A stretch of 63,839 bases of DNA, counting the filler, from Fonticula-like sp. SCN 57-25 (Eukaryota), in the NCBI GenBank assembly GCA_001724245.1. It is 3 parts of 3 records of this genome, joined end to end, with 100 filler letters (N's around TTAATTAATTAA, not from the genome) between each part and the next. Parts side by side here need not be neighbours in the genome. Positions count along the whole stretch, not along the records: positions 21,691 to 43,111 come from MEDX01000081.1; 2 more parts are not named here. One strand, written 5' to 3'. The translations under genes were made by a program, and so were the position numbers. A model generated the notes under the pieces. That model was given only the letters and a program-made list of their open reading frames with translations, did not search any database and was not told where the DNA came from. Positions 24,064-63,839 of this stretch are shown here, in pieces (position 1 is the first letter of the stretch; each line of letters begins with the position of its first letter).

Positions 24064-24907
24064 ATGGGCGACTTTAAGCGCTTGAAATTACATCTCTTGC
24101 CAGAGGAGCTTGTCACTGCTCCCGCGGCCGTAGAGTATGACGACCGTCTGGTGTCTCCTTTCGCGACTCCGCGCGCTACAGACGAGCTGTCGATTCTCGT
24201 ACGGAACTTGCGCTGTCGGATTGGGGGTAACGGCTAACGAGGGGCGGCTGAATAGATCGTAGGGAGCGGTAAAACGGGAAAGAAGACGCTTTCGCAGTTG
24301 CTGCGCAGGGCGACGGGCGGCGCAAACCTTCGCATGTGCGTAATCCGGTGGTCTGTTTTACACGAATGTCTCATTGTTCGTTTCCAGCTACTCGACGTCA
24401 TCGCTGCCGCTACCTCGCGAGGGTGCCACAAAAGCTCACTCATTTGACTTTGTCATTATTCTGGTGAATATGGTGGACGCGTATTCGTGCGATGTGGCGC
24501 GCATGTCGTTGGAGCGCATCCGGTTGGAGGCCATCTATGGGCGGTGCTGCATCGTCTGCACCCACGGTACGCCCGTGCCCCTTTCTTCCGCCCTCGTCGC
24601 TAATTTCGCCACAGCCGACCGCACGAGCGCCTACAGCGTACTTCCCGAGTCGGTGGAGAACCTTGCCATGGCCTTTCAATTGCCCGTTCTCTACGCTGAT
24701 CTTTTGGTGCGTCATCGCTTTGTTGGTTCTTGTGTTCTGACCTCTTTTCCATGGCGCCAGAGAGGGAGCTCTGCTCAACTTGCCGCTCGTATTCACAAGC
24801 TGCTGAAAATTTCGGCTGGCCTGCTCGCCTCTGATGGCGGAACGCCGTCGGCGGTCATCAGTGCAGAGCCGATGCTCGTCACGCCAACGCAAATCTTGGA
24901 TGACTAA
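24064..24907 (+). CDS. CENPM: Centromere protein M-like (small GTPase fold)
   Basis: SIL|IVGSGKTGKKTL; SSLPLP; FDFVIILVNM..AYS; GRCCIVCT; LA..FQLPVLYADL; AARIHKLLKISAG follow the CENP-M motif order. Confidence 0.75.
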
Positions 24908-33888: not shown

Positions 33889-35071
33889 ATGTCGACTCCC
33901 GCATCGTCGGCGGCACCTGTGCCCGCCACGCCGACGCCGTCCTCGGGCCGCCGGCTCGCATTCGATAATGACGAGGTCGTGCTGTGCTACCACGGCCCGC
34001 TCATGTACGAGGCCAAGGTGCTGCGCGGCGAGTACTGGGAGGGCCGCGAGAACGCCGAGGACGGGCCGCACTACTTTATGCATTACAAGGGCTGGAAGTC
34101 AAAGTGCGCTCCGTTTGAATCCTATGTTTGGCGGCGTCCATGCTGACGACACGGCATAGATGGGACGAGTGGGTGCCCGAGAGCCGCGTCCACCGCTACA
34201 ACGAGGAGAACCTCCAGCGGCAACAGAGCGAGACGCAAGGTGCGTTTATAAATACTGTTAAGCAGGCCGTCTAACGCGCCCGCTAGCCCTCGCGGCAAAG
34301 TCGCCACAGCAGCCGGCGAAGGATTCCCAGCAGAAGGAGCAAGGGAAGGATCAGAACAAGCGCAAGCGCCCCGCATCGTCACTGCGCGACGAGTCTTCGA
34401 CGCCGCCGTCCTCCTGTGCGCTCAACGCTTTTCCAGCGCTGTCGCTGACGTTTGTTCTTAGCTGATCGCCACGTGCGGCGGCCCGGCGCCGGTGCGCCAT
34501 CTCAGTCCGGCCGCGCCAAGGGCGAGATCGTGCTGCCGCTGCCCGAGGACTTTGTGCGCTATCTCGTGGACGACTGGGAGAACGTAACAAAGCAACAGAA
34601 GCTCGTGAGTCTTCCGCGGGACCCGTCGATCTCGCAGATCATCGCCGAGTATCTCGAGTCGCACGCGCCGTACGCCCCTTCAATACCGCTTTTGCCTCTG
34701 ATGCTGATGAGCTGCACCGCAGTTCGACGGGGACGCGCGAGGCGCTCGAGGCGCTGGAGCTCTACTTTCAGATGGCGCTGGGCAAGATGCTGCTGTACCG
34801 GTTTGAGCGGCAGCAGCTGCTCGATGTGCAGCGGCGGTTCGGCGACAAGCACCCGCTGAGCCGCGTGTACGGCGCCGAGCACCTCCTGCGGCTGTACGTC
34901 AAGCTGCCCAACCTGCTCGAGCAGACGGACATGCCGCAGGACGCGGCGGCCGAGCTTGCCGCTACGCTCTCTGACTTTATGCGGTTCATGCACAAGAACG
35001 CAGGGAAGTTCCTGCTAAAGGAGTACGACAACCCGCCCGCAGAGTACATCAACATGAGCAAGAGTTTGTAA
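33889..35071 (+). CDS. EAF3: MRG15/Eaf3 chromo-barrel + MRG domain protein
   Basis: VLCYHGPLMYEAKV; YFMHYKGWKSK|WDEWVPESR; LVDDWENVTK; ALGKMLLYRFERQQ; YGAEHLLRLYVKLP. Confidence 0.93.
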
Positions 35072-36098: not shown

Positions 36099-38658
36099 TC
36101 ACAAAAGAACGTCGTCGAGAATCCTCAGCGCGCGCTGGTACACCTCGAGCTGGTGCCTGCATCTATCGCGCTCCGCCGCCGTACTGTCCTCCTCGGTGAG
36201 CACCTCGGCCAGCCCGTCCGAGCGGTACAGTGCCGACACGAGGCGGCTCTGAAGCTGATCCCGCGACCGGTTCACCATGTGGTACATGATCGCCTTGGGC
36301 ACCAGATCGGCAACGTGCTTGCGCACGATGTTAAAGTAGGAGATGATGAGGGCGCGCAGCAGCTCAACCTCCATCTGCTCCTTTTCGGTCATCTCGCCAA
36401 CGCGCTGGTCCATCGTCGACAGCATGTCGACCTGTAAAAGTATCAGTAAAAGGGAATGTCTTTTGTTTCCTTCAAACGCACCTTTGCCACCCCGCCCGCC
36501 TGCACTGGCGTCGTCTGCCACCCGCCAAAAATCCCCATAAGCGACGTCAGCTGCCTCAGCTTGCCGCCCTCGTCGCCCCTTCCCGCCGCGCCATTCGCCG
36601 CCGCCCGCCCGTCGGCCCCGATCGTCGCCGACGCCCCCGCTGCCGCCGCTGCGCGACGGTCGCCTTCCTCCTTTGTCCGCCGGTGGCGCTCAATCACTAT
36701 CTGTTGTGTCAGCGTACATGTGGCGTCAAAAGAGGCGGACCTTCGATGGCACGCGCGGCGCCGATAAAGTCGGGGTGGCCCGTGTTGATTAGGGCGAGCT
36801 CAATGTTGATGAGCTCCTCAACGGCACGCTTTGCTGGCGCGAGGCCTTCGCGGAGCAGCGCGGTCGTCTCCTGCATGATGCGCGCGCTCAGAGCGGGGAA
36901 GCGCTTCACATCCTATAACGTACGTCAGTGACACTTCAAGATGCGTAAAGTGATGGAAATGACCAGCAACTACATAATTGACCTAACGACTGCGCCAATG
37001 AAGCAAAACTGACGAAAATACAGCAAAAAACAACGGAATATAGTTCTCAAACACAAATAAAGCATGTATATCCCTTCACTTCCCCGCCCGCACCTGCGCC
37101 TCCGCCATGGCCGCCACGCGCATCAGCTCCTCAAACACAAGGTCAACGCAGCGCTGCGCGGGGTCCGCCAGCCGCGCGATCTGCCGCTTGACGATGAGCT
37201 CAAAGGCCAGGTCGGGAATGAACAGCATTGAACGCGGCCCCTGCATGGAGTTAGTTTCGCGGGCAGTCATAGAGTAGGACGTACGGCAGAGTTGCGGATG
37301 GCCGTGCGGATCTCGCTGAGTGAGAGGCCGCCGCAGGGGTCGGTTTGCTCAAGTGTGCGAGCAAAGAGATCATTAAAGACGTAATGAATGCGCGCTCCGC
37401 CAGTCCTATAAAGACACGTTACAAAGCCGTACGCACTATTCAAGCATAGGCCATCCACCTATCTCACGTACAGTTCTGCTTGCTGCACGCGCATCGTGCC
37501 CTCAATTGACCGATTAAATGACGTGGCAAAATCCGTCAGCAACTGCAGCAACAGCTTTAACTATGCACGCTAGTCAGAGAACGATTCGCATAGTTTGTCG
37601 CGCACCGGCTCCGCGTCCGACTCGAACGAGACCGGCTTGCCAAACGTGGCGAGCTCGTCGGCCGCGCCGCCCGCCAGCGCCGCCAGCTTCTTCCTTATTG
37701 ACGGGGTTTGCTCCCTGATGCTCTGCACAAGCAACTTATTGAGCGTCTTGGTGAGGTAAGGCGTGCCACACCGGGCCGCAAACGCCCGGTACGCCTCGTG
37801 GCCCCTAAAGAACTCTTCCTCGGCCCGCAGCGAGTCCCTGATCCCCTTGCCCTGCTGCGTGTCGCGCTGGCTCCTGCTCACAACGCCGACGTACCCAAGG
37901 CGCAGCGGGACCACGCGGCCGTAGAGCGCGTCGATGGCGCTCGTCCCGCTGTCCATGAGGTCAAGCTTGGTCACCACGCCGACTGTGCGCAGGCCCTCGG
38001 GGTCCACCTGGCGCGCCAGCTTGAGCGACTCGGAATTTGCAAGATCGACGTTGGCCGCGCTCACCGCGAGAATGATCGCATGCGGGTTCTGGATGTGCTC
38101 GAGGGCGAGCGCGCGGACCTGCTCCTCGATGTCGCGAGGCTGATCACCGACGGGCACCTTCGTGATGCCGGGGAGATCAACTAGTGTAAGGTTTACAACG
38201 TCCGGTGCATGAATGCTCAGCACAATCGGCGTAGAGCAGACCTTCTTGCTCGCGCCGCCGCCAAGTGCGCGCGATGTCTCGAGCTCAATCTCGCGGCGCA
38301 CAAGGCCAAAGTCGGTAAAGATCTCGCCCGGCTTGTGCTCAAACTCGGCGTACTCGGCCGGCTCATCAAGCACGGCGGGCAGCGACGCGTATGTGTCTGC
38401 GTCGCCGGCGCGAGGGGAGTGCGCAGGGGCACTGGCGCCGCTCGCGAGCGTGTGGAGCTGAAGGACGAGGGGGCGTCGTGTGACGACATCGGGGCCGCGC
38501 GGGAGGAAATCCCGGCCGACAATATTCTCGAGAACGGACGATTTGCCGGTGCTCTGGCTGCCAATGACAACAATGCGAGGGAGGCGCAGTGGGTCGTGGC
38601 CAAGTGACGCGAGAGCAGACTGCACACGGTTGATGAGCGGGATCAGCTCCGACCCCAT
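36099..38658 (-). CDS. DNM1: Dynamin-related GTPase Dnm1/Drp1 (fission)
   Basis: LIPLINRVQ; IVVIGSQSTGKSSVLENIVGRDFLPRG; LVDLPGITKVPVGDQP; TKLDLMD; GGARIHY; IRTAIRNSA|GPRSMLFIPDLAFE; GED domain SYFNIVRK..DLVPKAIM. Confidence 0.88.
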
Positions 38659-38891
38659 CGCGGAAACAGTGACACACGGCCAATCGTGATGACGTAGATT
38701 GTGCAAAGTGCAAACTGCTCACATGTGGCCCACTAGCTGCCGACTAGCGTGGGTCCGTGGGATTCTAAATTCTATAAATAAGTTGCGCCGAGCGGGCCTG
38801 CAGCTTTGCAGCTTAGCTTAGATCTTTGGTTCCTCGCTCGCAGCTCGCGAACTACCCGTAGGGAGGATAAGCCAAGGTGGAGGAGCCGACA

Positions 38892-41800
38892 ATGCGGGAT
38901 GTTCTACTGCTAATCGCGCTGTTGGCTACCGCCATCTCGACTGCAGGTGCGGTTACCTCCGGTCTTACAACCCAGGGTCTGCTCACGGCAGACGTCTCTA
39001 TGTGTAGCCTCGCAGAACACGCGCGTGTACATGTACAACGGCGCTTCTACCTACTCTAGCAATGGTAGTCGTAACTACGAGGTTGGATCCCGCCACCAGA
39101 CCAAATTTTGCGATGGGGTGCCAGGCTGCACGGACGAATACAAAACGTACAACCTGGTGTACACTCAAGGAACCGGGTCAATGCCGCGCTGGATGGCCTA
39201 CACAGTCTATGACTTTTCTGCCCTGGCAGTACGTCACATGGGTTTCTGCTTCTTCTCACACGTCTAACGTTTCGCATTTGACAGCCTGCCCCGAGTCGCT
39301 TCTGCGCCACTGGCGCGCCCAAGCTCTTTCTGAGCCAATCTAGCACAAGCGTGGCTCCCGATATGGCTACCACGGTTACAACTGATGCCCTTGCCAATAT
39401 GTACGCGAAATATCACTGGCGACGCTGCCGATATTAACACGCTGCTTAGCGATTACGGCAAATTGACGTGGAACAATCAACCTCCGTTTACATCATACCT
39501 TGTCCGCGTATCGCAATCAGGCTACACAAAGGCATCAGAGTGCGACTGAGTGCCATTTTAGTTGCGTTTGCTAATGGCCTATCCAGGTGGTGGTACTATG
39601 TCGACCTCTCTGCCGTCTTGCTCAACACTATCGTGCGCAAGTCGGCCAGCGCCGTACGCATCACCCCCTTTGTCGAGTCATCCATTCACTCCGTGCCCTT
39701 AGGTGACGCTCCGCCAGCAGTACACGCATGGTACCCTCATCGGCTGGGAAACACACAAAGGGTCTTCTCCTTTTAAACCCTACGTAGCCCTCGACTATTT
39801 GACGTGTGACGAGAATGCGACCTGCTCCTACAATGGCGTATGCACCTGCAACACGCAATATGCCGGATCGGGGACAAAGTGTACTTGTACGCTACTTTTG
39901 TTTATATTGTTCTTGATCTAATCATCTATTTTCGCCTGATTTTCAGATAGCTCGTGTGACACGACGATCATGGGGAACGCCAATTTCACCTTGACATTGT
40001 CGGGCGAGGTTGCATCGGGGACCTGCCTCCCTGGCTACACTGGGCATCCGAAAGCGCTTTGTAGCAATACTGTTTGGGGCGCTGTGAGCGACCCTTGTAT
40101 TCGTTCGTATTTCGCTTGCCAGCCTGCATTTGCTGACGTCGCCCCTAGCATTGACGTGCCCCGAGGACATCACCCAGACCACTGGTAACGCCAGGTACGC
40201 GAGGACAAACGCTGGCCAGTTTACCACGGGTTTCTGTATCACTGGCTACAACGGAACTGCGACCCGATTCTGCTCCCTCCATGGCGCTTGGGCGTATGCG
40301 GCAATCGAGTCCTGCAAGCGCATCTCCTGCCCCGCTACAACGATGAGTAACGCAAGATTTATCGAAACCTACAGCTCCACAACCCGCGGTGGCTCCTGTC
40401 TCCCTGGGTACGCGACGAGCTCGGGCACCCCTACGAGCACCTGCTCTGCGTCTGGTGCATGGGGCAGTGTCACAAGGCCTTGTACCCGTACGCCACTCAC
40501 CTGATTGACCATGGCGAATACTCACTTTTTGGCGTAGGTAGAGAGTGCCCAACGTTCACGGACAATGTAAACAAGGCGCAGTGGCCAAAGACCCTCTCAT
40601 CGACGAACGGCGTGGGTGTATGCATGGCGGGCTACCAGGGCTCGCCGCAACGGCCGTGCGGGGCAAATGGAAGCTGGAACAGTACCGTTATTGGTGCCTG
40701 TCATCCGATATATTGCTCAGCCGAATCGACCTTTGAAAATGCTGCGTGGCCGGCGACGAACGCAGGATCAAGCAGCACTGGCACGTGCGTGACTGGGTAC
40801 AGCGGGGCGCCTGTGCGCACGTGCTCGATCACTGGCGTTTGGGCTTCGTCTGTATCGCCCGCGTGCGTTCGCAACACCTGCTCGGCGGCCAATTTTGGAA
40901 ACGCTATTTGGCCTGGCAGCACTCTGTCAATGACCACCGTAACCGGCACGTGCGCGACTGGTTTCTCTGGTGTCCCCTCTCGCGCCTGCAACGCCGATGG
41001 CACGTGGTCATTGTCTGTATCGAACCCATGCGTGAGGTTGTTTTGCCCGTGGGCGCAGCGAAACGACGCTATCTGGCCTCACTCGGCTGCTCCCACCTCC
41101 ACCGTTACGGGCGAATGCGTAGCCGGCTACAGCGGCACGCCTACTCGCGACTGCAGCGTGAGCGGCGACTGGCTAGCTGTTTCTGGTGCATGCACTCGCA
41201 ATCGCTGTAGCGCGATAACAGAGGGCTTTGCCACCTGGGCTGCCGCGGATTCGCTCACGTCGGTTTCTGGGACATGTCAGGCTGGGTACCAAGGCAGCCC
41301 GAGCCGTACTTGCAGCGCCGACGGCACCTTTGGTGAAATCATCAACCCCTGCCGGCGCATCGTGTGCAGTGCTCAGAGGCACGACAATGCGATGTGGTCG
41401 GACACCAATTCTGGAACCACTGCGTCTGGAATTTGCGATCATGGCTGGAGCGGATTGCCCACCAGGGAGTGCAGCTTTACAGGAACGTGGGGTTCCGTCT
41501 CTTCGCAGTGCGAGCGCATCACCTGCCCGTCGATCGATGACGCTTCAGCGCAAGCACTTTTCCCTGCAGCTAACGCAGGCGACCCGGAGCCTGCCATTTC
41601 AATTCGTCCACCGTCCCCACGCGCGACTGTATGTCCAACGGGTCGTGGTCCGAGGTGAGGAACCCATGCAGTACTAGCCAGTGCCCCGCCCTTCAGGACG
41701 ACGGCCACGCGGACTGGGAGAGATCTATGATCGTTAACCGGAATGTGACGGGCACATGCGTGGCCGGATACAACACCACGCTGCCGCCTCCGCAGCGCTT

Positions 41801-43111
41801 GTGTATGGCAAACGGTCAGTGGGCCGCCGAGATTACCAGCCCCTGCCAGCCGATCTTTTGTACCAAGACGTCTTCAAGTTACGCTCCGTTCAACGCCGAT
41901 TGGCCCAACTCGGTGCAGGCCGGTATGGCCGCTCCTGGGACCTGCGCTGCCGGATTCACCGGCACGACGTCGCGCACGTGCTCGCTCACGGGTGAGTGGG
42001 GTATCCCGTCGCCGGCTTGCCAGGCAATCACTTGTCCTGCCATTGGCGACGACGGCGCGCAGAGCTCGTGGCCAATGACGCAGGCTGGCAAGAGCGCGTC
42101 GGGCACCTGCGTGGCAGGCTACGAGGGCACCCCGACTCGCGGGTGCACCCTCGCTGGCCAGTGGGAGGAGGTCTCGTCGCCCTGCACGCAGAAAAAGTGC
42201 CCGGCCGGCACAGCCTCGAACAGCGTGTGGGTGGATACCCTTAGTGGTCTTTCAGCCACTGGAACGTGCGTGTCTGGCTCCGTCGGTTCGGTGACTCGCT
42301 CCTGCTCGTCGGATGGTGTTTGGGGTTTGGTTGTTGGGACGTGTAAATTTGTCGTCTGCCCTGCTGAAATAGTAGGCAATGCACAATGGGGCGATACTCT
42401 CCCCGGAGACGTTGCTATTGGCAGCTGCGTTGCCGGCTATGCGTCCAGCCCAGCACCCAGACGCACGTGTCTTGCAAACGGCAACTGGGGATCTGTCAGC
42501 GGTGCCTGCACGCGTCGTGTCTGCTCCAGCGAAACGTTTGACAATGCCAATTGGCCGTCGGAGAACGCGATGACGAATGACGTGCGTGGAACGTGCACCG
42601 CCGGCTGGTACGGCGCACCGGTGCGAGACTGCAGCTCGAGTGGCCAGTACTCTGCCGTGAGGAACTCCTGCCTCCGTAATATATGCCAAGCTATTGAGAG
42701 CGAGATGGGCGCGTGGGCGCCGACCAACGCCGGCTCGACGAACGTGCAAGGCACCTGCCCTATTGGCACCGTCGGCTCGCCCTTCCGCAACTGTGCCACG
42801 GACGGCACGTGGAGCTCAATCCTGAGCGGTAGTTGTGTCTCGCGGTCGTGTCCCGCCCAGTCGTCTGGACTTGTTGATTGGCCCGCCACGCCGGCGGGCA
42901 GTGTTGCCAGCGGCTCGTGCCCGTACGGATACTATTCGAACCCTTCGCGCGAGTGTTCGTCTACTGGTGTGTGGGGTCCGATCGTGAACCCTTGCTTGCA
43001 GTACATCTGCCCGGCCGTGGTAGACGGCCATGTGCAATGGCCCGCGACGCCGGCGATGTCGACCGCCACAGGCCAGTGCGGGTCAGGCTACTTTGGTTCG
43101 CCATCACGGCC
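38892..43111 (+). CDS. Secreted/surface DNRLRE/CBM96-like + EGF + at least 19 HRM/sushi-like Cys repeats (family member 2; 3' end lost in gap; frameshift near 41590)
   Basis: Signal peptide MRDVLLLIALLATAISTA; WMAYTVYDFSAL...KLTWNNQPP; EGF CDENATCSYNGVCTCNTQYAGSGTKC; tandem C-x(9-12)-WP.T.aG...G.C..GY.G.P.R.C...G.W....C repeats. Confidence 0.85.
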
Positions 43112-43211
43112 NNNNNNNNNNNNNNNNNNNNNNNNNNNNNNNNNNNNNNNNNNNNTTAATTAATTAANNNNNNNNNNNNNNNNNNNNNNNNNNNNNNNNN
43201 NNNNNNNNNNN
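43112..43211. other. Artificial contig linker (N-run + TTAATTAATTAA + N-run)
   Basis: Seen directly in the sequence. Confidence 0.97.
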
Positions 43212-45255: not shown

Positions 45256-48200
45256 ATGTCGGTCGAGGCAGAGGGTCGCGAAGTGCTGTCGCGGCTGCTC
45301 GCCGTCCGCGATGACGAGTACGTCTTACCATGACACGGTTACCGGCATACTGACACATATATTGTTGCAGTGGGCGCCAGCGCGCAGAGTTGTTTGTAAA
45401 GCTGCCTTCGCGCAAGCTGTTCGCCGATTATTACAAGGTCATCTCGGAGCCAATGGCGGTTGACACTATTCAGGTACGGCGCTGATGCCTGAGGCGGCGC
45501 TCGTCTAACGTCTCTGTGCAGAAAAAACTGAATGCGGGCGAGTATGATTCCTTTGCGGCGTTTGAGGCGGACGTGGCCGTTATGTTTGCCAACGCCAAGT
45601 ATTACAACGAGCCCGGCTCGGAGGTGTACGAGGATGCCGTGGCACTCGAAAAGGCGTTCAAGGCAGCCAAGAAGGAGGTCCACACCTCGAACAAGCGCGG
45701 CGACACACCGAGTTCGACGCCATCTCGCTCGGCTGTCAAGAAGGAGGCGGCGACGCCTGCGACGCCAAAGGCGGGCTCTGCTGCCGATCGCGCGCAGCTC
45801 GAGGGCATCCTGGAGGAGATCACGGCGCTCAAAGGCGACGACGGGCGTCAGCTCGCCAAAGAGTTTTTGAAGCTTCCGTCGAGGAAAGAATTTGCAATTT
45901 ATTACACCGTTGTTGAGAAGCCGATTTCCCTGAGCGAGATCCGGTCAAATATCAGCAAGGGCGAGATCGCGTCCGTCGCCGCGCTGGCCGCCGCCGTCGA
46001 TCTCATGGTGAAGAACGCCAAAATGTTTAACGAGCCCGACTCGGAAATTGTTTCCGACGCCCTGACCATTTCTGTGCGTAGAATCCAAAGATCGCTCGCT
46101 TTTGCTCACCTTCTTTGCCTTGCTAGAAAACGGTTGCGAAGCATCTCCCTCGCAAGGGGCGAGGCACGCCCGCGGCGCCTGAGGCGCCGTCCATCCCGGC
46201 GCCGGCCGCGACGCCCAGCCGGGCCAAGCCTGCCGCCAAGAGCGCGTCTCCCGCCCCCGCCAAGGCTGCGGCTCCTTCCTTTGCCGACTACGTGCCCGAG
46301 CAGACGGAAGAGTCGGTGACCGTCGGTGACGCGTCGTTCCGTGCGGGAGAAGTTGTCCTTTTGCCAAACACGGTGGACGCGGAGGCTGCGCCACACGTTG
46401 TCCTCTTGGACGCCGTGTGGATGGAGAATGGTGCCCCGATGTGCCACGGCACGCTGCTCTTCCGCCCCGAGGAGACCTTCCACGTGGCGACCAAGCGCTT
46501 CTTTGAAAATGAGGTGTTTAGGACAAATGCCGGCCGCACGCTGCCGCTCACGGGCGTCGTCGGCAAGGGCGCCGTCATTTCAGCCAAGGACTTTCCCAAG
46601 CGTACGTCTCTTTTTTTTAGCTGGACAGTCCTTTACTGACTCTTAAAAGTGCGCCCGGAAGGCATTGCCGATGCAAATGTGTTTGTCTGCGAGTCGCGGT
46701 ACGTCGAGGCGAGCAAGACGTTCCACCGCATCAAGGACTGGCGGAAAGCGTTCCCTCACCCTGACGCCGCGCCTGCCCTTGTGACGCGCGACGTGCCCGT
46801 GGAGCTCACGACGGTCCGCTCTGTGTTTTGGACGGACGCCGAAGGCGACGGGGACGGCGACGAGGGTGCGGTTGCTGACGCCGACGATGATGCCATGGAC
46901 GTGGACGCGCCGGTGGTCAAGCCGAAGCGCAAGGCGCCCGCGACGCCGTCGTCGCCGTCCACGCTCGATCTGGACGCGTCGGCCTCGGCCGCCAAGACGC
47001 CGCGCACGGCGGCCGCCAAGGACGTCAAGACGCGGAAGCCCGTCCAGATTTCCACCAATGTCTCTTACGGGTGGTCGTCGCGCGACTCGCTGCGCCGGGA
47101 GATTTACCTCGCGCGCCAGACGCCAGTGCCCGTGCGCGCTCCTCTTTGCTTAGCAACCAAATCTAATATTTGTGTGCAATAGGAGAGCAAGTCGCTTGAC
47201 AGGGCGCACCTGTACGTGTGCTTCCTTGGGGCCGATCCGCTGGCCGTGGAGGTCCCCGGCGGAGTCGCTCTGGGGCGCATCTGCGTGCCTCACCTCCTGC
47301 GGTACGAGTCGATGGCTATCTATTTGGTTCTTACGAAGGATTTAGGGCACTGTCGTTTCCCAAGAACCGCCGCCAGCTGCTGCTCAAGCGCGTATCTGCC
47401 GCGTACCCCGAACACATTGTGGAGACGCAGGCCGACCTTGACCGCTCCGGCCTATGGTGCGCGACACTGCCCTTTTTATTGCTTGTGGCCTGATCCAATT
47501 TCTGCAGGGCGCCGCTCGAGCTTGTGTGTGCCGTGCTGCAGGACGAGTTGTCAGCTTCGCAGACTGACCTGATGGCGACCTTTGCGCCGATCGTGCGCTC
47601 GTACCCGCAGTTTGTGGCGCGGGAGCCTTCGCTGGCGATCCCCTTTTTGGACGACGGCCTGCTGGGCAACGGCGAGGCGATCCCGGCGCTCGTGGAGAGC
47701 GAGCCCGCGGGCGACGGCACCGCCGCCCCCGCGCGCCCTCCGCTTCAGGCGACGCTTCCGCCGTACACGCCGCTGACTGTGAGCCTGCCGCGCGGCGGGC
47801 CTATTGTCGGCGGGCCGGTGACGACAGCGGCGAGCTCGAGCGCCCCGCTTCCGCAGCTTCAGTTGAGCGCGCGCGGGACGCAGGCGCTTGTGGCGCGCGC
47901 TCTCGCCGGCGAGCTGTCGTCCAATGCGGTGCAGCCGAGCTCGTCGCCGCTGGGCATCTGGCTCTTCCACTCGGACAGCGACGGGACCGTGTGGCCGCTC
48001 GACCCCGCCGTCGAGGCGCACAGCATCACCGTGCACGTCGACAGGCGGCCGGGCGCGCAGACGACCAACACGCATGCGGTTGCCAACTCTGACGACGAGC
48101 AGGCGGGCGCCTCGGCGTCAAAGCCGACGCTCACGCTTGTCATTGCGACCAACGGTGCTGTGAGCGAGGTGCAGGCGTTCTGGAACGCCAAGCCGATAAC

Positions 48201-53638: not shown

Positions 53639-56495
53639 ATGAATTGGGAGCCCCAGGCCAACGTGCTGCAGGAGTTACAGCACCTGCTCAATGGGGTCGG
53701 CAACGCGAACAATGCCCACCACCGCGAGGTTCTCGAGGTACGCGTGCCCTGCCAGAGGATCGTTTCCACGTTCTGACTCTTTTTTCGTTAACAGCGGTTG
53801 CAACAAATGAACGCGATGCCGGACATCAACAACTACCTGATGTATCTCTTTATGAACATGCCGAATGAGTTGGACACGGTGCGCGCGACCGCCGGTCTCG
53901 TGCTCAAGAACAACGTGCGCGCCGGGTACATGCAGATGAATCCGCAGGTCAAGGAATACATCAAGCAAAACTGCCTGAGGGGGATCGCGGACCCGTCGCC
54001 ACTTGTCCGCAGCACCATCGGGTCCGTCATCACGACGATCCTTACTGCAGGCCAGGATTGGCCGCAGCTCGTCCCTGCCCTCGTCAATCTGCTCTCGAAC
54101 CCGCCGGACGTGGTCGTAATCGAGGTACGCCGCCCGGTTTGGTGAACGCGGCGATGCTCACTCGTGATTCTTTAGAGCGCGCTCTCTGCCCTCGCAAAGA
54201 TCTGCGACGACACGGCCTCCATGATGGACTATGGCACGGCCCAGATGCTCGTCCCTGTCTTCCTCCGGTTCTTTGAGCATCCCGAGGCCAAGGTTCGCGA
54301 GCTTGCGATCACGGCGACGAACCAGTTCATCAGCACGCGCGTGCAGGGCGGCCAGCCGGCTGTGCACCCTGCCCTGCTGCAGCACATTGACACGTTCATC
54401 CAGGTACTGGTCTCATGTCTTTGATCGATGCCCGTGCTCACGCTACGTTCAGGGCCTGTACAACCGCGCGACCGATCCCTCCCCCGACGTCCGCCGCCTG
54501 GTCTGCCAGGGCCTGGTGTACCTGCTGGAGATGGAGTCGGACAAGCTGATGCCGCAGATGCCGGCCATCATTGAGTTTATGCTGCACTCGACGAGCGACG
54601 CGGATGAGCGCGTGGCGTTGGAGGTGTGCGATTTCTGGATGGCCATTGCCGAGGTGCCCGAGGCGTACCCGCTGGTCGAGGCCGTGCTGCCGCGCCTTGT
54701 CCCCATCCTCATTGGCGGTATGATCTACCAGGACGATGACATTGCGCTCCTGCGCGCTGACGAGGAGGACTTTGCCGAGCCGGACCGCCGCGAGGACATC
54801 AAGCCCAACTTTTACCATGTCAGGACTCACGTGGCTGGCTCCACGGACATGACGGCGGATGTGGCAGTTGACGTTGATGACGGCGATGACGAGGACGACG
54901 AGGACGGCGGCATTGACGACGAGGGCATGGGCGAGTGGAACTTTAGGAAAAGCTCGGCCGCGAGCATCGACCAGCTCTCGAGCGTGTTTGGCGAGGGCCT
55001 CCTGCCGCACGTTCTCCCGCTGGTTGAGCCGCTGCTCCAGTCGCAAGAGTGGAAGCAGCGCGAGTGCGGTATCCTTGTGATTGGCGCGATCGCCGAGGGC
55101 TGCGCGCAGGCGCTCGAGCCGCACCTTCCCCAGCTCTCGACGTACCTGCTCCGCATGATGCAGGACGAGAAGCCGCTCGTGCGCAGCATTGCGTGCTGGA
55201 CGGTGAGCCGGTTCTCGTCGTGGTACGTGCGCCACCAGACGGACGACTACCTGAGGCCGATCCTCTGGCTCCTTCTCAAGGGCATGCTCGACCGCAAGAA
55301 GCGCGTCCAGGAGGCGGCGTGCAGCGCGCTCGGCACCCTTGAGGAGCAGGCGCAGGAGCGCCTCGTGCCGTACCTGGAGCCGATGCTGCAGCACATCACG
55401 CAGGCCTTTGGCATGTACAAGCACAAGAACCTCTTGATCCTCTATGACACGCTGAGCACGCTCGCGACGTCGGTCGGCAGCGTGCTCAACACGCCGCAGT
55501 ATGTCTCCCTCATCATGCAGCCGCTGCAGGACAAGTGGCTTGCGCTCGGCGACAATGACGACAACCTCTTCCCGCTGCTCGAGTGCATGGCGACCGTGGC
55601 GACCGTGCTTGGCCTCGGCTTTTTGCCGTATGCGCCGGCCGTGTTTGACCGCTGCCTCCGCCTGATTGCGAGCACGTACGAGCGCGAGCGCCTCCACGAG
55701 CAGGACCCCGCGCAGTACGAGGAGGTGAACAAGGACTATGTGATCGTGGGCCTCGACCTGCTGAGCGGCGTCGTGGAGGGCCTCGGCCAGTCGGTCGAGT
55801 CGCTCGTGGAGGGTAACCCGCAGATGATGAGCCTGCTCGCCGTGTGCATGAACGACGCGGTGCCCGAGGTGCGCCAGAGCGCCTTTGCGCTGCTCGGCGA
55901 CCTCTCGTCGTCGTGCTTTGTGCACGTGCGCCCGCACGTCAACGGCTACTTTGTGTACCTCGAGCGCAACCTCGTGCCGACGCACGTCTCGACCTGCAAC
56001 AATGCCGCGTGGGCGCTCGGCGAGATTGCGCTGCAGCTCGGCTCGGACATGGACGCGTTTGCCCAGGTCGCCCTGCCGATCCTCATCAACATCCTGCACA
56101 TGGACCGCACCGCGCTCCCGCTCACCCTGCTGGAGAACATTGCGGTCGCCATCGGCAGGCTCGGAAAGTCGTCCCCGGCCGTCGTCGCGCCGCACCTCCC
56201 AGTGTTCCTCGAGAACTGGTGCAGATACGTAAAGGTCATCCGCGACAACGCAGAAAAGGAGTCGGCATTTTTCGGCATCTGCAGCGTCGTCGAGCGCAAC
56301 CCCAACGGTGCTGTCGGGTCATTCATGTTCCTCTGCGACGCGTTCGCGTCGTGGACAAGTCCGTCGGCTGACCTCGCCGCGCGTATCGGAGCGCTGTTGA
56401 GCAACTTTAAGGCGTCGGCAGGGGCGCAGTGGGCGACGTTTTTCAACAACTGCCCGGACACGCTCGCTAGACTCGAGCAGTTCTACCGCATTTAA
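53639..56495 (+). CDS. TNPO1: Transportin-1 / karyopherin beta-2
   Basis: MNWEPQ; PDINNYL; RATAGLVLKNN; acidic loop PDRREDIKP...DDEDDEDG...WNFRKSSAASID; KKRVQEAACSA; YKHKNLLILYD; PEVRQSAFALLGD; NNAAWALGEI. Confidence 0.95.
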
Positions 56496-59951: not shown

Positions 59952-62900
59952 ATGGCTGCAGCGAGGCGGCAGCGATGGCTAGCGCTGGCCTTGCTTCTCT
60001 CCATAGCGGCGTCAAGCGGTGCGCATTAGACTGTGGTGGCTTGGCACTCACGAGGGAGGTTAGCGAGCGCCTATGTCCGGGTCAATCAGATCGACGGCGC
60101 AACGACGAAACGTAGCGCGCCAGACCAAAACTTTGCAGTGACTCTTATAACCGATCTCATTTCAATTGCATCTCTTGGGATCAATGAGACCACCAATGGG
60201 GCCCACCTGGTCCCTCTTGACCACTCTGAAATAGCATATTTTGGGTTTAATTTTAGTGAAGTCGCCACAGTACGTCTAGTCGCTGGCTGAGCCTGCGCTG
60301 TGCGCTAACGTTCAATTTTCAATAACCATCTAGTCCTCGCAAACTTGCGCAACAGGCAATGTAAGCCTATACATTCACTTTACCCCATGTGGCGGCGGCT
60401 CCATCGAAGTACCTTCTATTTTTGTAATTGACTCGCCGTCGTTGGATACGTACGCGGGCGGCCGGCTATTGAGACAGCAGCTTACATTCATACTATAGGG
60501 CACTTTCGGCGATTACATGGAATAATCAGCCTTCAATAGACACTTTGTTGTTTGTTAACGAGACGTTTTCAAGCTACACCGTGGCCTCGGTGGGCCTGCC
60601 TACGGGCGACACGTGCGGCCGAGTTATTTCTTTCTCTCAATCTATTAACCATTCGCGCTTGCCTACCACCTTCAACATATCACTTTACAATACCTATTTG
60701 ATACAAGCAGTCTTCAGCCCCCTTGGTATGAGATTTCGTCGTCTATGCTATCTACGTGGGCAAATTCCGCATTCCGCCGAAACGTTCAGGTGTGTTCACA
60801 CTGATACGAATATCTTTAAGCTAACCCATGACTGTCCTCTTCAAGATGGACATTCTTCGCTTGGCACATGTATCTGCGGATTTCACACAGTCGTGCACCA
60901 GTTCTCATCTAACCAAGCCGGCGTATACTCTTGGTGCCTTCCTCGCAATTGATGATATCATGGATTGCCACGCCGACGCAACTTGCAACCAAGGACCCGA
61001 TGGCGCTAGCTGTGAATGCAACACTAATTATATCGGAAACGGAACGCACTGCAGCTACACACCTTGCGAGCAGGGCATCTTTGGTAACGCGGCGTTTCCC
61101 AAGGCGGCTATCGGCTCCACCGTACCCGGCGTGTGCTTTTCTTTGTACAGCGGTAGCCCTTTGATGACGTGTACTGCGGAAGGTTGGAGTGAAGTATCGA
61201 ATCCTTGCGTTAGTGCGTGTTACATTTTTTCATTGTCTTTATCACTTGGCTAAAGCATGGTGCATGGTAGAAATCACGTGCCCGGCGGACACAACGTCGG
61301 CAGTAGGCCATGCGAGTTACCCGATTACTGATGCGGGTACCACCGCGAGTGGCACTTGCAACACCGGCTACATGGGGTCGGCCACGAGGACCTGTTCTGG
61401 GACCGGCTTGTGGGCTACCTCTGCCACAACGTCCTGTACCCGTTCGTGTTTATAAGGTCTCTTTGTGATTAAGCTGACACATATGATTGACAGGAGCTAC
61501 CTGCCCCGCAATAGTAATAGTTGCTGAAAATGCGAGCTTCCCAAAAACGAATAGCATGACGTATGCCTCTGGTACATGCGGCTCTGGTTATCTCGCTGGT
61601 CCCACTGGCCCCCCTACCGCATTCTGCTCATCGGAGGGTGTCTGGGGTCCTGTCTCGAATCCCTGCGTCAGTGCGTGTTTAAAGCACCCCCGCTGGCGCC
61701 ATGCTGCGAAGCACAGGTTAATTCCACAGCTGGCTATGCACACTTTCCTCGCACTCCCATCAACACCGTCGCAACCGGTACTTGCATGACCGGCTACTCG
61801 GGTTCCGCGACGAAGGACTGTTTAGATAGCGGTTGGTCTATCCAACCCATAACTTCATGCATTCGTTCGTGTTTCGATTGAGTCTTGTGATAGCGCTGAC
61901 ACAGTCGATAGGAAACACGTGCCCGCAAACGACTATTAACAATGCGACTTTCCCCAGAACGAACAGCATGACGACGGTTAGTGGTACATGTGCTACAGGT
62001 TACATGGGAAACCCATCCGCAACCTGCTCGGCGGCTGGTACATGGGGCAGCGTCTCCTACCCCTGCACCAGTGCGTGTTTGCAATGCCTCGAGTGGTGCT
62101 ATGCTTACGTAGCACGATTAGAACGAACACACTGCGATGCACAGCCTAATTCAGCAGTTGGATATGCAAGCTTCCCCCTCACGCCCATCAACACAGTCGC
62201 AACCGGTATTTGCATGACCGGCTACGGGGGGTCGGCAAAGAAGACCTGTACTTCGACCGGAGTATGGGCTACCTCTGCCCAATCGTCGTGCACTCGTAGG
62301 TCTATATCTTGCCTTTTGCTTTGCTTACTTGCGTCTTTAGGCCTCAAGTGCATGGGAATGACCGTGGGCGGTGCGACCTACCCACAGACGGATAGCATGA
62401 CGACGGCCTACGGTACATGCATTTCAACCTATGAAGGCACCCCTATTGCAACCTGCTCAGCGACGGGTCTCTGGAACTTTACAACCACCTGCACCAGTGC
62501 GTATCTCTGCATTACATAATCATTTGTTTCGGTTCTGATGCATGGTAGAAATCCAATGCGAAGAGGATACATTCTCCTCAGTTGGACATGCAAACTATCC
62601 GCTCACCGATGCGGGTACCAATGGTGTTGGTACTTGCAACATTGGCTACGAAGGGTTGGCAACGCGCGCTTGCGATGAATGGGGTTTCTGGTCTCACGAT
62701 GCCATCACATCGTGTACTCGTACGTTTAGTTTATTCCTTGTACTCAAACTTACTTTCATTTTATTAGGAATCATGTGCCCACCTGCCACTATTGGCACTG
62801 CCTCATTTGAAGCGACTTATAGCATGACGATGGTGTACGGTACCTGCGCATCAACATATATCGGCTCCCCAACCGCAACCTGCTTAGCCAATGGTACCTG

Positions 62901-63839
62901 GGGACCAGTCGTGGCTCCTTGCGTCAGTGCGTGTTTCTCGAATCGCTTTTCCTGTAGCTCACGTTGGTGCTTGGAAACAGAAATCCAATGCCCAGCGACT
63001 GGATCGGCAGTTGTCGGCTATGCAAGCTATCCGAGCACCGATGCGGGTACCACCGGGATTGGCACTTGCAACATTGGTTACGAGGGGTCGGCAACTCGCG
63101 CTTGCAGTGTGTGGGGTGCCTGGTCCGACACTGCTACTACATCGTGCACTCGTATGTTTTACTTGTTATTGTACCTGGACTTACTCGATTCGCATCTTTA
63201 GGCATCAGGTGCCCAGCTACCACTATTGACACTGCGTACTTTGAAGAAGCTGATAGCATGGGGTCCGCCGCCGGTACATGCGCTGAGGGGTATTCCGGCT
63301 CACCTTACGCGTACTGCGGAGAGACGGGCCTGTGGGACGCGGTTGCTTTCCCGTGTTCTCGTGCGTGTATTTATTCCAAGTTCCTTGATCTCATGACTGT
63401 TGGTAGGAAATATGTGTCCTTTAGAGTACCATGCTGCGGGCAACGTATCATGGCCCGGCACGTTTTCGTTTGAGCATGCTTCTGGTATATGCGCTCCTGG
63501 GTTTTATGGCACACCGCAGCGACAGTGCCTTGCAGATTCGTGGAGCAGCACTGTACATGGCCAGTGCTACCGTACGTTCCCCTGGGCCCGCATGTGTGCA
63601 TTGCCATCGGATACTAATAATTGACTTTAGACATTACATGTCCCGGAGAACAATACCTTAATGCGTCATTCCCAGCTTCAAATGCCGGTTACTACGCAAC
63701 TGGGCAGTGCGAAGACGGCTTTACCGGCATGCCTGAACGCTTTTGTTCATACGAGGGAGTCTGGTCTTCTACGCTATCATTGCAGTGCACTCGTGCGCCT
63801 CTGCATCACGATGATGCCCGATGCTGATGCTTTTTGTCC
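59952..63839 (+). CDS. Secreted/surface DNRLRE/CBM96-like + EGF + at least 13 HRM/sushi-like Cys repeats, about one repeat per exon (family member 3; runs off window)
   Basis: Signal peptide MAAARRQRWLALALLLSIAASS; DGATTKRSAPDQNF...AYFGFNFSEV...AITWNNQPS; EGF CHADATCNQGPDGASCECNTNYIGNGTHC; repeats separated by phase-1 introns. Junctions at 60612-60845 and 61671-61700 could not be resolved. Confidence 0.8.

What the first reader, a model, noticed from the sequence alone, without database searches (positions are those of the whole stretch)
39948..43111. Tandem array of at least 19 repeats intermediate between the GPCR hormone-receptor (HRM) domain and sushi/CCP
Seen: units of about 52-58 aa, C-x(9-13)-[WF]P.T.aG..a.G.C..GY.G.P.R.C...G.W.....C. 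Established: WP.T..G......C.....G...R.C...G.W......C is the HRM pattern of class B and adhesion GPCR ectodomains, normally single-copy; C..GY..G.....C...G.W....P.C is the CCP pattern; the class B ectodomain core has been described as an SCR/sushi-like fold. Inference: free-standing poly-HRM stalks in a unicellular eukaryote could represent the pool from which GPCR HRM domains arose. The missing C-terminus could be GAIN-7TM, a kinase or an anchor.
Basis: partly seen in the sequence, partly recalled or inferred. Interest (0 to 1): 0.78.

Follow-up and report, generated by a model that had tools for sequence, protein, structure and literature searches.

The report
HRM/sushi-like repeat stalk of receptor kinase
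This is the outer part of a cell-surface receptor gene from an unidentified compact eukaryote, built from 19 small disulfide-knotted modules that sit between the animal hormone-receptor (HRM) and sushi domains, and whose relatives end in a membrane anchor and a protein kinase, not a GPCR.

Summary
Window 39947-43111 (+) encodes 19 tandem 4-cysteine units with a 53-59 aa period: 17 are complete, one is broken by a frame-disrupting indel, and one is cut by a contig join.

The units are intermediate between families. Pfam HRM scores best on the long exons (92.6 bits, against Sushi 32.9). Taken singly, only 1 of 18 units passes the HRM cut-off and 2 of 18 pass Sushi. A confident model of one unit (pLDDT 95.8) is closest to the Eph-receptor sushi domain, then to class B GPCR/latrophilin HRM domains, then to canonical CCPs. 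A three-unit model matches complement CCP arrays. The units lack HRM's helix and third disulfide but keep its Trp/Arg/Trp core.

Co-linear relatives continue into fn3 x2-3, a TM helix and a TKL-like kinase. None of the 32 relatives scanned has a 7TM or GPS domain.

The best reading is therefore the ectodomain of a receptor-like (pseudo)kinase, not a free-standing stalk or GPCR precursor. The taxon is unresolved. Verdict: a new variant of a known kind, of moderate interest.

The parts
39463..39537 (+). Possible upstream coding exon; the gene start and any signal peptide are not resolved
   Evidence: This is the only upstream stretch conserved with the second gene's upstream region (tblastn 50% identity over 26 aa, E 0.004). 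The evidence is weak.
39703..39886 (+). Exon ending in an EGF-like module (the open frame starts at 39703; the true exon start is unknown)
   Evidence: Translation. Pfam EGF_3 E 7.5e-4, 20.1 bits, below the cut-off of 28.5. Conserved with the second gene's EGF (E 2.75e-5) and with the N-terminus of P0015.
39887..39946 (+). Intron 1 (60 nt, GT..AG, phase 1)
   Evidence: Read by hand. Splicing gives ...GTKCTY|SSCDTT, parallel to the second gene's ...GTHCSYTPCEQG.
39947..40102 (+). Exon carrying unit 1
   Evidence: unit HMM 67 bits.
40103..40148 (+). Intron 2 (46 nt, phase 1), inside the 4-residue inter-unit linker
   Evidence: Read by hand. Splicing restores the C-x4-C spacing.
40149..40487 (+). 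Exon carrying units 2-3
40488..40537 (+). Intron 3 (50 nt, phase 1), inside the inter-unit linker
   Evidence: Read by hand. Splicing restores the C-x4-C spacing.
40538..41583 (+). Long exon, first frame: units 4-9 and the first half of unit 10
   Evidence: Co-linear with P0022 residues 3-372 (74.6% identity) and P0023 residues 1-352 (59%).
41581..41586 (+). Frame-disrupting indel inside unit 10. The reading frame moves here and about 3 residues are missing relative to paralogs.
   Evidence: Frames read. The tblastn alignments to P0022 and P0023 switch frame between 41583 and 41586. The 100%-identical ORF P0006 from another record also starts only downstream, consistent with the same lesion.
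41586..43111 (+). Same exon, second frame: the rest of unit 10, units 11-18, and truncated unit 19
   Evidence: Pfam HRM 92.6 bits. Co-linear with P0023 residues 357-865 (63%).
43112..43211 (.). Contig join (N44 - TTAATTAATTAA - N44). The gene's 3' part is not in the window.
   Evidence: P0006 shows two more units beyond this point in another record.
60954..63839 (+). Second, separate gene of the same family: EGF_3 module followed by 13 units, about one unit per exon. It runs off the window end.

Best explanation
The region is the 5' (extracellular) part of a gene for a single-pass, type I receptor-like protein kinase or pseudokinase, from an expanded gene family in an unidentified eukaryote with a compact genome.

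The ectodomain is an EGF-like cap followed by at least 21 tandem small all-beta modules of about 52 aa, joined by 4-residue linkers. Each module is a sushi/SCR-superfold domain with four cysteines. The pairing is inferred as C1-C3 and C2-C4. Each module carries the aromatic-Arg-aromatic core and the WP.T..G motif typical of the GPCR hormone-receptor (HRM) domain, but lacks HRM's N-terminal helix and extra disulfide.

Strung together, the modules form a long, semi-rigid, CCP-like rod that holds binding surfaces far from the membrane. By homology, the rod is followed by 2-3 fibronectin-III domains, a transmembrane helix and a cytoplasmic TKL-like kinase domain. In the closest kinase-bearing relatives, that domain has lost the DFG aspartate and the glycine loop. 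Ligand or surface contact at the stalk would be relayed by clustering of the cytoplasmic (pseudo)kinase.

Shown here: the repeats, their family affinities, the fold, the introns, and the architecture of the relatives. Inferred: the disulfide pairing, the missing C-terminus of this particular gene, and the signalling role.

This copy carries a frame-breaking indel in unit 10, so it may be a pseudogene or may contain an assembly error.
For: - Repeats and spacing.
- Pfam on exon pieces: HRM 92.6 and 47.9 bits (cut-off 26.2), Ephrin_CRD 52.3 and 39.9 (cut-off 27), Sushi 32.9 and 35.3 (cut-off 20.7).
- One-unit AF2 model: pLDDT 95.8, five strands, no helix.
- Foldseek PDB on that model: listed ranks 1-14 are Eph receptor CRD/ectodomain chains (TMq 0.74-0.83, rmsd 1.5-3.9). 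Next come the CRFR1, GIPR, CRFR2, latrophilin HormR, PTH1R and GLP-1R ectodomains (TMq 0.64-0.74), apart from one PTH1R entry at 0.54. Canonical CCPs (CD55, CR2, C2) score lower (TMq 0.42-0.57).
- Three-unit model: pLDDT 91.7. It matches tandem CCP arrays (C2, CR1 CCP15-17, beta2-GPI, Crry, CD46, CD55, factor H) at E about 1e-5, with 51 hits at E<=0.001.
- Co-linear relatives: P0023 (1588 aa), P0024 (1549 aa) and P0029 (1780 aa) have the array plus fn3, a hydrophobic TM segment and a kinase (PK_Tyr_Ser-Thr 82.6 and 113.8 bits for P0023 and P0029; precomputed Pfam list for P0024).
- Kinase type: the P0029 kinase is most like CTR1 (1.5e-18) and IRAK4 (1e-17), so TKL-like.
- Positional orthology: diagonal matches are 59-75% identical and off-diagonal unit matches 30-40%. 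The array therefore predates the paralogs.
- Broader survey: of 32 relatives (>=800 aa, >=33% identity, chosen from the best 150), 26 have HRM hits, 6 fn3, 4 kinase, and 0 have 7tm_2, GPS or GAIN.
- Introns: phase-1 introns sit in the inter-unit linkers, 3 of 3 in this gene (read) and 10 of 12 boundaries in the second gene. This is the classic layout of shuffled extracellular modules.
Against: - The window holds no fn3, TM or kinase for this gene, because the contig ends at 43111.
- Only 4 of 32 scanned relatives show a kinase. Many show only repeats or other extracellular domains (Peptidase_S8, PAN, FG-GAP, ALK_LTK_GRD, CHRD). P0216 ends in a TM helix with a short tail and no kinase. The module is therefore used in many architectures.
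- The nearest paralogs, P0022 and P0020 (67-69%), are ORF calls that stop just after the last unit, so their C-termini are also unseen.
- The frame break in unit 10 may mean this copy makes no full-length protein.
- No signal peptide or gene start was found.
- Per-unit Pfam scores are mostly below all three cut-offs.
- Foldseek E-values for the single 51-aa unit are weak (0.02-0.5), although the reported probability is 0.99-1.00 for the Eph and nearly all HRM hits (two HRM-side entries, GIPR and PTH1R, are at 0.94 and one PTH1R entry at 0.84) and 0.54-0.90 for the canonical CCP hits.
Confidence: 0.62

Rival explanations
1. It is an ordinary sushi/CCP-repeat adhesion or secreted protein with no kinase. 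The HRM score would then be cross-talk between related cysteine-rich profiles.
For: - The four cysteines, spacing, 4-residue linkers, GY.G and G.W motifs and phase-1 introns are all CCP features.
- The profile of the units finds CR2 (2.8e-8), C2 (1.2e-5), factor B and DAF ahead of CRFR1 (0.42) and BAI3 (0.72) in PDB sequences.
- The three-unit model matches CCP arrays.
- Named distant hits are SVEP1-like and CSMD proteins.
- Some relatives show repeats only (P0021, P0025, P0163).
Against: - Canonical sushi arrays score Sushi far above HRM (P0250: 589.8 against 33.6 bits; P0289: 634.9 and no HRM). Here the order is reversed (HRM 92.6 against Sushi 32.9).
- Only 2 of 18 units pass the Sushi cut-off.
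- A single unit superposes better on Eph-sushi and HRM domains (TMq 0.64-0.83, with one PTH1R entry at 0.54) than on CCPs (0.42-0.57).
- The CR2 E-value is a sum over many weak stretches (best single stretch 13.9 bits, against 19.7 for EphA2 and 14.0 for CRFR1).
- The relatives that run co-linear to the end of the array and beyond have fn3-TM-kinase.
Confidence: 0.2
2. It is the N-terminal fragment of an adhesion-GPCR-like protein (poly-HRM, then GAIN and 7TM), or a direct precursor pool of the GPCR HRM domain.
For: - HRM is the best-scoring Pfam family on the exons and in 26 of 32 relatives.
- The HRM core residues W, R, G and W are kept.
- The fold is close to class B and latrophilin HRM domains.
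- The literature places the HRM-GAIN-7TM linkage late, in the filasterean+choanozoan ancestor, with HRM-containing non-GPCR membrane proteins in Fonticula alba (PMC12716839, passages seen).
Against: - 0 of 32 scanned relatives and 0 of 37 relatives with precomputed Pfam lists carry 7tm_2, GPS or GAIN.
- The units lack two defining HRM features, the third disulfide and the N-terminal helix (features as listed in PMC3499705).
- Direction of descent cannot be read from similarity alone, and the organism is unplaced.
Confidence: 0.05
3. The locus is a dead copy (pseudogene) of a family member, so the array has no present function in this genome.
For: - There is a frame-disrupting indel with about 3 residues missing in unit 10, while paralogs read through.
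- An identical ORF from another record also begins only downstream of the break.
- The family is large, with paralogs at 50-69% identity, so redundancy is plausible.
Against: - Apart from this one lesion, both frames stay open for 344 and 512 codons, and all four cysteines are kept in 17 of 17 complete units. That argues for recent or no decay.
- The assembly is a draft made of short joined contigs, so a local error is possible.
- The two records may rest on the same reads.
Confidence: 0.3

Closest known systems
Sushi / CCP / SCR modules in tandem arrays (complement regulators CR1, CR2, factor H, CD55, beta2-glycoprotein I; Pfam PF00084)
   Same: About 55-aa all-beta modules with four cysteines at CCP-like spacing, the C2-xxGY/F and GxW motifs, 4-residue linkers and head-to-tail rods. 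There is one module per exon with phase-1 introns in the second gene. The three-unit model matches these arrays at E about 1e-5.
   Different: - Only 2 of 18 units pass the Sushi cut-off.
- The N-terminal half carries the HRM-type aromatic-P.T..G motif and a conserved Arg before C3, which (from recall) are not CCP features.
- A single unit fits canonical CCPs worse (TMq 0.42-0.57) than Eph-sushi or HRM.
- The host is not an animal-like genome (introns of about 50 nt).
Hormone receptor domain (HRM/HormR, Pfam PF02793) of class B and adhesion GPCRs
   Same: It is the best Pfam family on the exons (92.6 bits) and in 26 of 32 relatives. It shares the WP.T.aG, R.C and G.W motifs, that is, the Trp/Arg/Trp core. 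Fold similarity is TMq 0.64-0.74 to CRFR1/2, GIPR, PTH1R, GLP-1R and latrophilin HormR, apart from one PTH1R entry at 0.54.
   Different: - Four cysteines rather than six, with no Cys directly before the Trp.
- No N-terminal helix.
- The acidic partner of the salt bridge is not conserved.
- 19 or more copies in tandem instead of one.
- No GAIN or 7TM in any relative seen; fn3-TM-kinase instead.
- Only 1 of 18 units reaches the cut-off alone.
Eph receptor ectodomain (cysteine-rich domain with its sushi part, then two fn3, TM and kinase; Pfam Ephrin_CRD PF25599)
   Same: It is the top structural neighbour of a single unit (listed ranks 1-14, TMq up to 0.83, rmsd 1.5). Ephrin_CRD hits occur in 11 of 18 units, with the best single-stretch PDB sequence hit at 19.7 bits. 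The order of domains in the relatives (sushi-like, fn3, fn3, TM, kinase) parallels the membrane-proximal half of Eph receptors.
   Different: No ephrin-binding domain was seen. There are many units instead of one. The kinase of the relatives is TKL-like (CTR1/IRAK4 score best), not a tyrosine kinase of the Eph type. No unit passes the Ephrin_CRD cut-off alone. Convergent domain shuffling is the simpler reading.
HRM-containing non-GPCR transmembrane proteins of the nucleariid Fonticula alba (reported in PMC12716839)
   Same: These are non-GPCR membrane proteins with Pfam HRM hits, and they come from outside Holozoa, which the window's source may also be (passages seen).
   Different: Their sequences and architectures are in a supplementary file that I could not open, so identity with this family is untested. 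No Fonticula-named protein appeared among the hits.
Receptor-like kinases of the TKL group (plant RLK/Pelle-IRAK; membrane-spanning kinases of Saprolegnia)
   Same: Single-pass topology, with a large repeat ectodomain and a TKL-like kinase in the relatives. PMC3681718 (passages seen) reports 131 kinases with TM helices in Saprolegnia parasitica, showing that such receptors are common in some protists.
   Different: No ectodomain of HRM/sushi-like modules plus fn3 is described in the passages I saw. The window's dynamin is only 52-58% identical to oomycete and fungal proteins, so it is not from a close relative of those named genomes.

Membership tests
HRM / HormR (PF02793) | Score above the Pfam gathering cut-off (26.2 bits) | tested here: inconclusive
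   The exon pieces pass (92.6 and 47.9 bits; a third piece scores 16.2). Of 18 single units, 14 have an HRM hit at E<=0.06 but only 1 (42846-42998, 36.7 bits) passes.
HRM / HormR (PF02793) | Six conserved cysteines forming three disulfides (PMC3499705) | tested here: not met
   There are exactly four cysteines per unit in 17 of 17 complete units. In the one residue-level alignment seen (the first-ranked hit, CRFR1), the position of the Cys before the Trp holds another residue.
HRM / HormR (PF02793) | N-terminal alpha-helix preceding two antiparallel beta-sheets (PMC3499705) | tested here: not met
   DSSP on the models shows strands only and no helix, in one unit and in three units. The 4-residue linkers leave no room for a helix.
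HRM / HormR (PF02793) | Acid-base salt bridge sandwiched between two aromatic rings (PMC3499705) | tested here: inconclusive
   Arg before C3 in 15/17 units. First aromatic 17/17 (W in 14). Second aromatic 17/17 (W in 15). No conserved Asp or Glu column; the nearest conserved polar residue is Asn in 10/17. Side-chain contacts could not be inspected because no coordinates were returned.
HRM / HormR (PF02793) | Context: single copy next to GAIN/7TM or directly before a class B 7TM | tested here: not met
   There are 19 copies here. 0 of 32 relatives have 7tm_2, GPS or GAIN, and 0 of 37 do by precomputed Pfam lists.
Sushi / CCP / SCR (PF00084) | Score above the Pfam gathering cut-off (20.7 bits) | tested here: inconclusive
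   The exon pieces pass (32.9, 35.3 and 22.0 bits). Of 18 single units, 9 have a hit and 2 pass (21.7 and 24.0 bits).
Sushi / CCP / SCR (PF00084) | About 60-aa module with four cysteines and a conserved Trp between C3 and C4, in tandem with short linkers | tested here: met
   (Trp 15/17, aromatic 17/17; linker of 4 residues throughout).
Sushi / CCP / SCR (PF00084) | Disulfides C1-C3 and C2-C4 | not testable with these tools
   The models return no coordinates. The pairing is inferred from the alignment of C1, C2, C3 and C4 to the CRFR1 cysteines together with recalled CRFR1 pairings.
Sushi / CCP / SCR (PF00084) | CCP beta-sandwich fold and elongated multi-module arrays | tested here: met
   The three-unit model hits CCP arrays at E 1.2e-5 and below, with 51 hits at E<=0.001. 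A single unit hits CCPs at TMq 0.42-0.57, lower than the Eph and HRM hits.
Eph receptor family | Ephrin-binding domain plus one CRD plus two fn3 plus a tyrosine kinase | tested here: not met
   No ephrin-binding domain was found in any Pfam scan. The kinase of the relatives is closest to CTR1 and IRAK4. Only the sushi-like fold and the fn3-TM-kinase order are shared.
Receptor-like protein kinase (single-pass, TKL-like) | TM helix followed by a protein kinase domain in the same polypeptide | not testable with these tools
   This gene's 3' part lies beyond the contig end, and the DNA collections that could extend it were closed. The feature is met in relatives P0023, P0024, P0029, P0165, P0169 and P0208.
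Receptor-like protein kinase (single-pass, TKL-like) | Catalytic motifs (glycine loop, VAIK Lys, HRD, DFG) | tested here: inconclusive
   Read from the sequences. P0029 has all four motifs. P0023 and P0024, which are closer to the window gene, keep HRD and a Lys but have SGF or GGL in place of DFG and no glycine loop, so they are likely pseudokinases.

The most novel reading that the evidence does not exclude
The 4-cysteine 'HRM-like sushi' module is an old, widespread eukaryotic extracellular building block that links CCP/sushi, the Eph-receptor sushi domain and the GPCR hormone-receptor domain. On this reading the GPCR HRM is a derived form that gained a helix and a third disulfide. Outside animals the module was already wired to signalling through an Eph-like sushi-fn3-fn3-TM-kinase layout, built on a TKL kinase. 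[quoted passage not shown]
Probability: 0.2. Interest if true: 0.75.

Novelty: new variant of a known kind. Interest (0 to 1): 0.5.

Why it matters
A recent survey (PMC12716839, passages seen) describes the HRM domain as largely restricted to Holozoa, with Fonticula alba as the only exception among the proteomes it sampled. It leaves open whether HRM predates Holozoa.

Here, HRM-scoring modules occur in long tandem arrays in a compact eukaryotic genome whose housekeeping dynamin is not close to any named animal, fungal or oomycete protein. A whole-library search finds 1008 cluster representatives at E<=0.001, 422 at E<=1e-10 and 128 at E<=1e-30. These carry many architectures but never a 7TM.

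If the host is non-holozoan, this gives a concrete, testable candidate for the pre-GPCR history of the HRM fold. It also gives an example of a receptor kinase with an animal-looking ectodomain outside animals.

The caveat is that Pfam already tags such proteins as HRM/Sushi/Ephrin_CRD. The module class is therefore not new; only its form, copy number and partner domains are.

Tried and rejected
- **DNA-level tandem repeat or assembly artefact:** rejected. TRF gave 0 rows.
- **Chance pattern:** rejected. Per-unit HMM E-values are 1e-15 to 1e-21.
- **Placing the organism:**
  - A dynamin-like ORF (37570-38661, minus strand) found only 52-58% identical named proteins, fungal and oomycete alike.
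  - A 27-row tree put the window row inside the fungal set (96/100), but on a very long branch (2.98) that the tool flags as unreliable. I treat this only as a weak hint.
  - Pfam domains of 36 other ORFs show ordinary nuclear genes (BEACH, Rit1, TMEM120, CENP-M, MRG, bromodomain, importin-beta) and give no taxon.
- **ESM Atlas:** An X-free reference gave only unnamed 'Hormone receptor/Sushi' clusters with no taxa.
- **Supplementary file 24 of PMC12716839 (the Fonticula HRM proteins):** Whether this family is the one reported there is unchecked.
- **Literature on poly-HRM, sushi receptor kinases or HRM outside animals:**
  - I ran searches, and read passages.
  - I found no description of this architecture. 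The only near items were one chytrid protein with an HRM hit (PMC5364385, one passage) and the Fonticula note.
  - This covers the held library only, not subscription journals.
- **Gene start and signal peptide:** comparing the upstream regions of the two genes gave only one weak extra exon candidate. The start is unresolved.
- **Extending the gene:** I did not scan genome contigs because it holds bacteria and archaea. No DNA of relatives was fetched, so their intron structures and true C-termini rest on ORF calls.

Full report
**What is there**

The window is three contigs joined by N44-TTAATTAATTAA-N44 linkers at 21591-21690 and 43112-43211. The finding lies at the 3' end of the middle contig.

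I read the DNA and translated the pieces. This shows one plus-strand gene with short GT..AG introns:
- An exon ending at 39886 that encodes an EGF-like module (EGF_3, E 7.5e-4, below cut-off).
- Intron 39887-39946.
- Exon 39947-40102.
- Intron 40103-40148.
- Exon 40149-40487.
- Intron 40488-40537.
- One long exon from 40538 to the contig end at 43111.

I placed the introns by hand. All three are phase 1 and sit inside the 4-residue linker between repeat units, so splicing restores the C-x4-C spacing.

**The repeats**

Cysteine spacing and unit extraction give 19 units with four cysteines each, at a period of 53-59 aa.
- Seventeen units are complete.
- Unit 10 is interrupted near 41581-41586. 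The reading frame shifts there and about three residues are missing compared with paralogs.
- Unit 19 is cut by the contig end.

An HMM of the units recovers each unit at 1e-15 to 1e-21. Elsewhere it finds only a second gene at about 61-63.8 kb.

TRF finds nothing at the DNA level. Units are 29-43% identical to the reference unit. Against paralogs, diagonal matches are 59-75% identical and off-diagonal matches 30-40%. The array is old and each position is individually conserved.

**Which family**

On whole exon pieces, Pfam gives:
- HRM: 92.6 and 47.9 bits.
- Ephrin_CRD: 52.3 and 39.9 bits.
- Sushi: 32.9 and 35.3 bits.

Unit by unit, for 18 units (unit 10 left out):
- HRM hits in 14, with 1 above cut-off.
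- Ephrin_CRD hits in 11, with 0 above cut-off.
- Sushi hits in 9, with 2 above cut-off.
- Two units hit none of the three.

As a control, canonical sushi arrays among the distant hits score Sushi far above HRM (589.8 against 33.6 bits; 634.9 against none). The reversed order here is therefore a real property of these units.

A profile of the 17 units against PDB sequences ranks multi-CCP proteins first, by summed weak stretches (CR2 2.8e-8, best stretch 13.9 bits). EphA2 CRD follows (19.7 bits in one stretch), then C1s, CRFR1 (14.0 bits) and BAI3. By sequence the unit is about equidistant from the three named families.

**Fold**

AlphaFold2 of unit 42846-42998, using the 17-unit alignment, gives pLDDT 95.8, five strands and no helix.

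Foldseek against the PDB gives:
- Eph receptor cysteine-rich domains at listed ranks 1-14 (TMq 0.74-0.83, rmsd down to 1.5).
- Class B GPCR ectodomains and the latrophilin HormR next (TMq 0.64-0.74, apart from one PTH1R entry at 0.54).
- Canonical CCPs lower (TMq 0.42-0.57).

E-values are weak (0.02-0.5) because the domain is tiny. Reported probabilities are 0.99-1.00 for the Eph hits and nearly all HRM hits, with a few HRM-side entries at 0.84-0.98 and the canonical CCP hits at 0.54-0.90.

A three-unit model (pLDDT 91.7) matches tandem CCP arrays of complement proteins at about 1e-5, with 51 hits at E<=0.001. One module therefore looks most like Eph-sushi or HRM, and the string of modules looks like a CCP rod.

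**HRM features**

PMC3499705 (passages seen) lists the class B ectodomain core as:
- A sushi domain with an N-terminal helix.
- Two antiparallel sheets.
- Three disulfides from six cysteines.
- An acid-base pair sandwiched between aromatic rings.

The units have the sheets, both aromatics (17/17 each) and the Arg (15/17). They lack the helix, the third disulfide and a conserved acid.

The alignment to CRFR1 puts the unit's C2 and C3 on two of the receptor's cysteines. By position, C1 and C4 fall on two more. With the receptor's pairings as I recall them, this implies 1-3/2-4, the CCP topology. That pairing is an inference, not a test.

**What the array belongs to**

The word-indexed search found the window's own ORF in another record (P0006, 100%). 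That ORF runs two more units past the gap and then stops in what looks like an intron.

Longer relatives include P0023, P0024 and P0029. Read and scanned, they have about 22 units, then fn3 x2-3, a hydrophobic transmembrane stretch followed by basic residues, and a protein kinase domain. P0023 is co-linear with the window gene at 59-63% identity.

The P0029 kinase has all catalytic motifs and is closest to CTR1 and IRAK4, so it is TKL-like. P0023 and P0024 lack the DFG aspartate and the glycine loop (read), so they look like pseudokinases.

The exhaustive search finds 1008, 422 and 128 cluster representatives at E<=1e-3, 1e-10 and 1e-30. Of the best 150, I scanned the 32 that are >=800 aa and >=33% identical:
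- 26 have HRM hits.
- 6 have fn3.
- 4 have a kinase.
- None has 7tm_2, GPS or GAIN.
- Others combine the module with Peptidase_S8, PAN, FG-GAP, CHRD + P_proprotein, ALK_LTK_GRD or Big_5.

P0236 is a run of about 20 near-identical 4-Cys units scoring 471.6 bits on HRM. P0216 ends in a TM helix and a short tail. The module is thus a widely shuffled extracellular block. The lineage nearest the window gene uses it in receptor (pseudo)kinases.

**Second gene and introns**

At 60954-63839 (+) there is a second family member, made of an EGF_3 module (33.5 bits, above cut-off) and 13 units. Ten of 12 unit boundaries have a phase-1 GT..AG intron of 45-59 nt that restores C-x4-C. Two boundaries were not resolved by my script. 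In its units HRM hits 8 of 13, Ephrin_CRD 5 and Sushi 4, none above cut-off. Donor sites in both genes mostly read GTNCGT.

**Organism**

The organism is unresolved. The surroundings are ordinary eukaryotic nuclear genes. G+C is about 58% around the gene. Introns are about 50 nt.

A dynamin-like ORF finds nothing above 58% identity among named proteins. A small tree puts it with fungi, but on a long branch that the tool warns about. 'Unicellular eukaryote' is plausible but not shown.

**Literature**

PMC12716839 (passages) reports the following. HRM occurs in choanoflagellate and filasterean adhesion GPCRs. It is absent from the sampled Holomycota, Amoebozoa, Viridiplantae and ciliates. The exception is five or six non-GPCR membrane proteins of Fonticula alba. 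That survey did not sample stramenopiles, other alveolates, rhizarians or excavates.

I could not open its supplementary file 24. My other searches and passages show no description of a poly-HRM-like receptor kinase in the held library.

**Verdict**

The 'intermediate between HRM and sushi' reading is supported, with the Eph-receptor sushi domain as a third and structurally closest neighbour.

The 'free-standing stalk' and 'GPCR precursor pool' reading is not supported by architecture and is untestable for ancestry.

Most likely this is the ectodomain of a receptor-like TKL (pseudo)kinase, in a copy that may be broken. I rate it a new variant of a known kind.

Noticed in passing
60954-63839 (+): A second gene of the same family: an EGF_3 module (33.5 bits) followed by 13 HRM/sushi-like units, roughly one unit per exon. 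Phase-1 introns of 45-59 nt sit at 10 of 12 unit boundaries. The gene runs off the window end. Its units mostly have F or Y instead of W at the 'WP' position.
   Followed up: partly
21591-21690 and 43112-43211: N44-TTAATTAATTAA-N44 linkers. The window is three separate contigs joined artificially, so genes on either side of a linker are not neighbours.
   Followed up: yes
41581-41586 (+): A frame-disrupting indel inside repeat unit 10, with about 3 residues missing compared with paralogs. An identical ORF from another record also starts only downstream. This is either a possible pseudogene or a shared assembly error.
   Followed up: partly
39887, 40103, 40488 and the introns of 61213-63630 (+): The 5' splice sites mostly read GTNCGT (GTACGC, GTTCGT, GTGCGT, GTACGT) and the introns are only 45-60 nt. 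This may be a useful signature for identifying the lineage.
   Followed up: no
36102-38718 (-): A Dnm1/Drp1-like dynamin gene (GTPase ORF plus a GED domain ORF). The best named relatives are only 52-58% identical, fungi and oomycetes alike. In a small tree it sits with fungi on a very long branch.
   Followed up: partly
relatives P0023 and P0024: The kinase domains of the closest full-length relatives keep HRD but lack the DFG aspartate and the glycine loop, while the more distant P0029 has all motifs. This suggests a pseudokinase subfamily within the receptor family.
   Followed up: partly
relatives P0230, P0261, P0223, P0171, P0285, P0190: In other unnamed proteins the same module is combined with the ALK/LTK glycine-rich domain, CHRD plus the proprotein-convertase P domain, subtilase, PAN or FG-GAP domains. 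Several of these are usually thought of as animal domains.
   Followed up: no
relative P0236: A 1116-aa protein made of about 20 nearly identical 55-aa 4-Cys units with a 1-residue linker. It scores 471.6 bits on Pfam HRM, making it a much more HRM-like tandem array than the window's, and it has expanded recently.
   Followed up: no
11152-12369, 13446-15359, 17794-18345, 24344-24904, 34466-35068, 45486-46316, 54225-56492: Ordinary nuclear genes: BEACH domain, Rit1 initiator-tRNA phosphoribosyl transferase, TMEM120, CENP-M, MRG, a double bromodomain, and an importin-beta-like HEAT protein. Many other long ORFs have no Pfam match.
   Followed up: no
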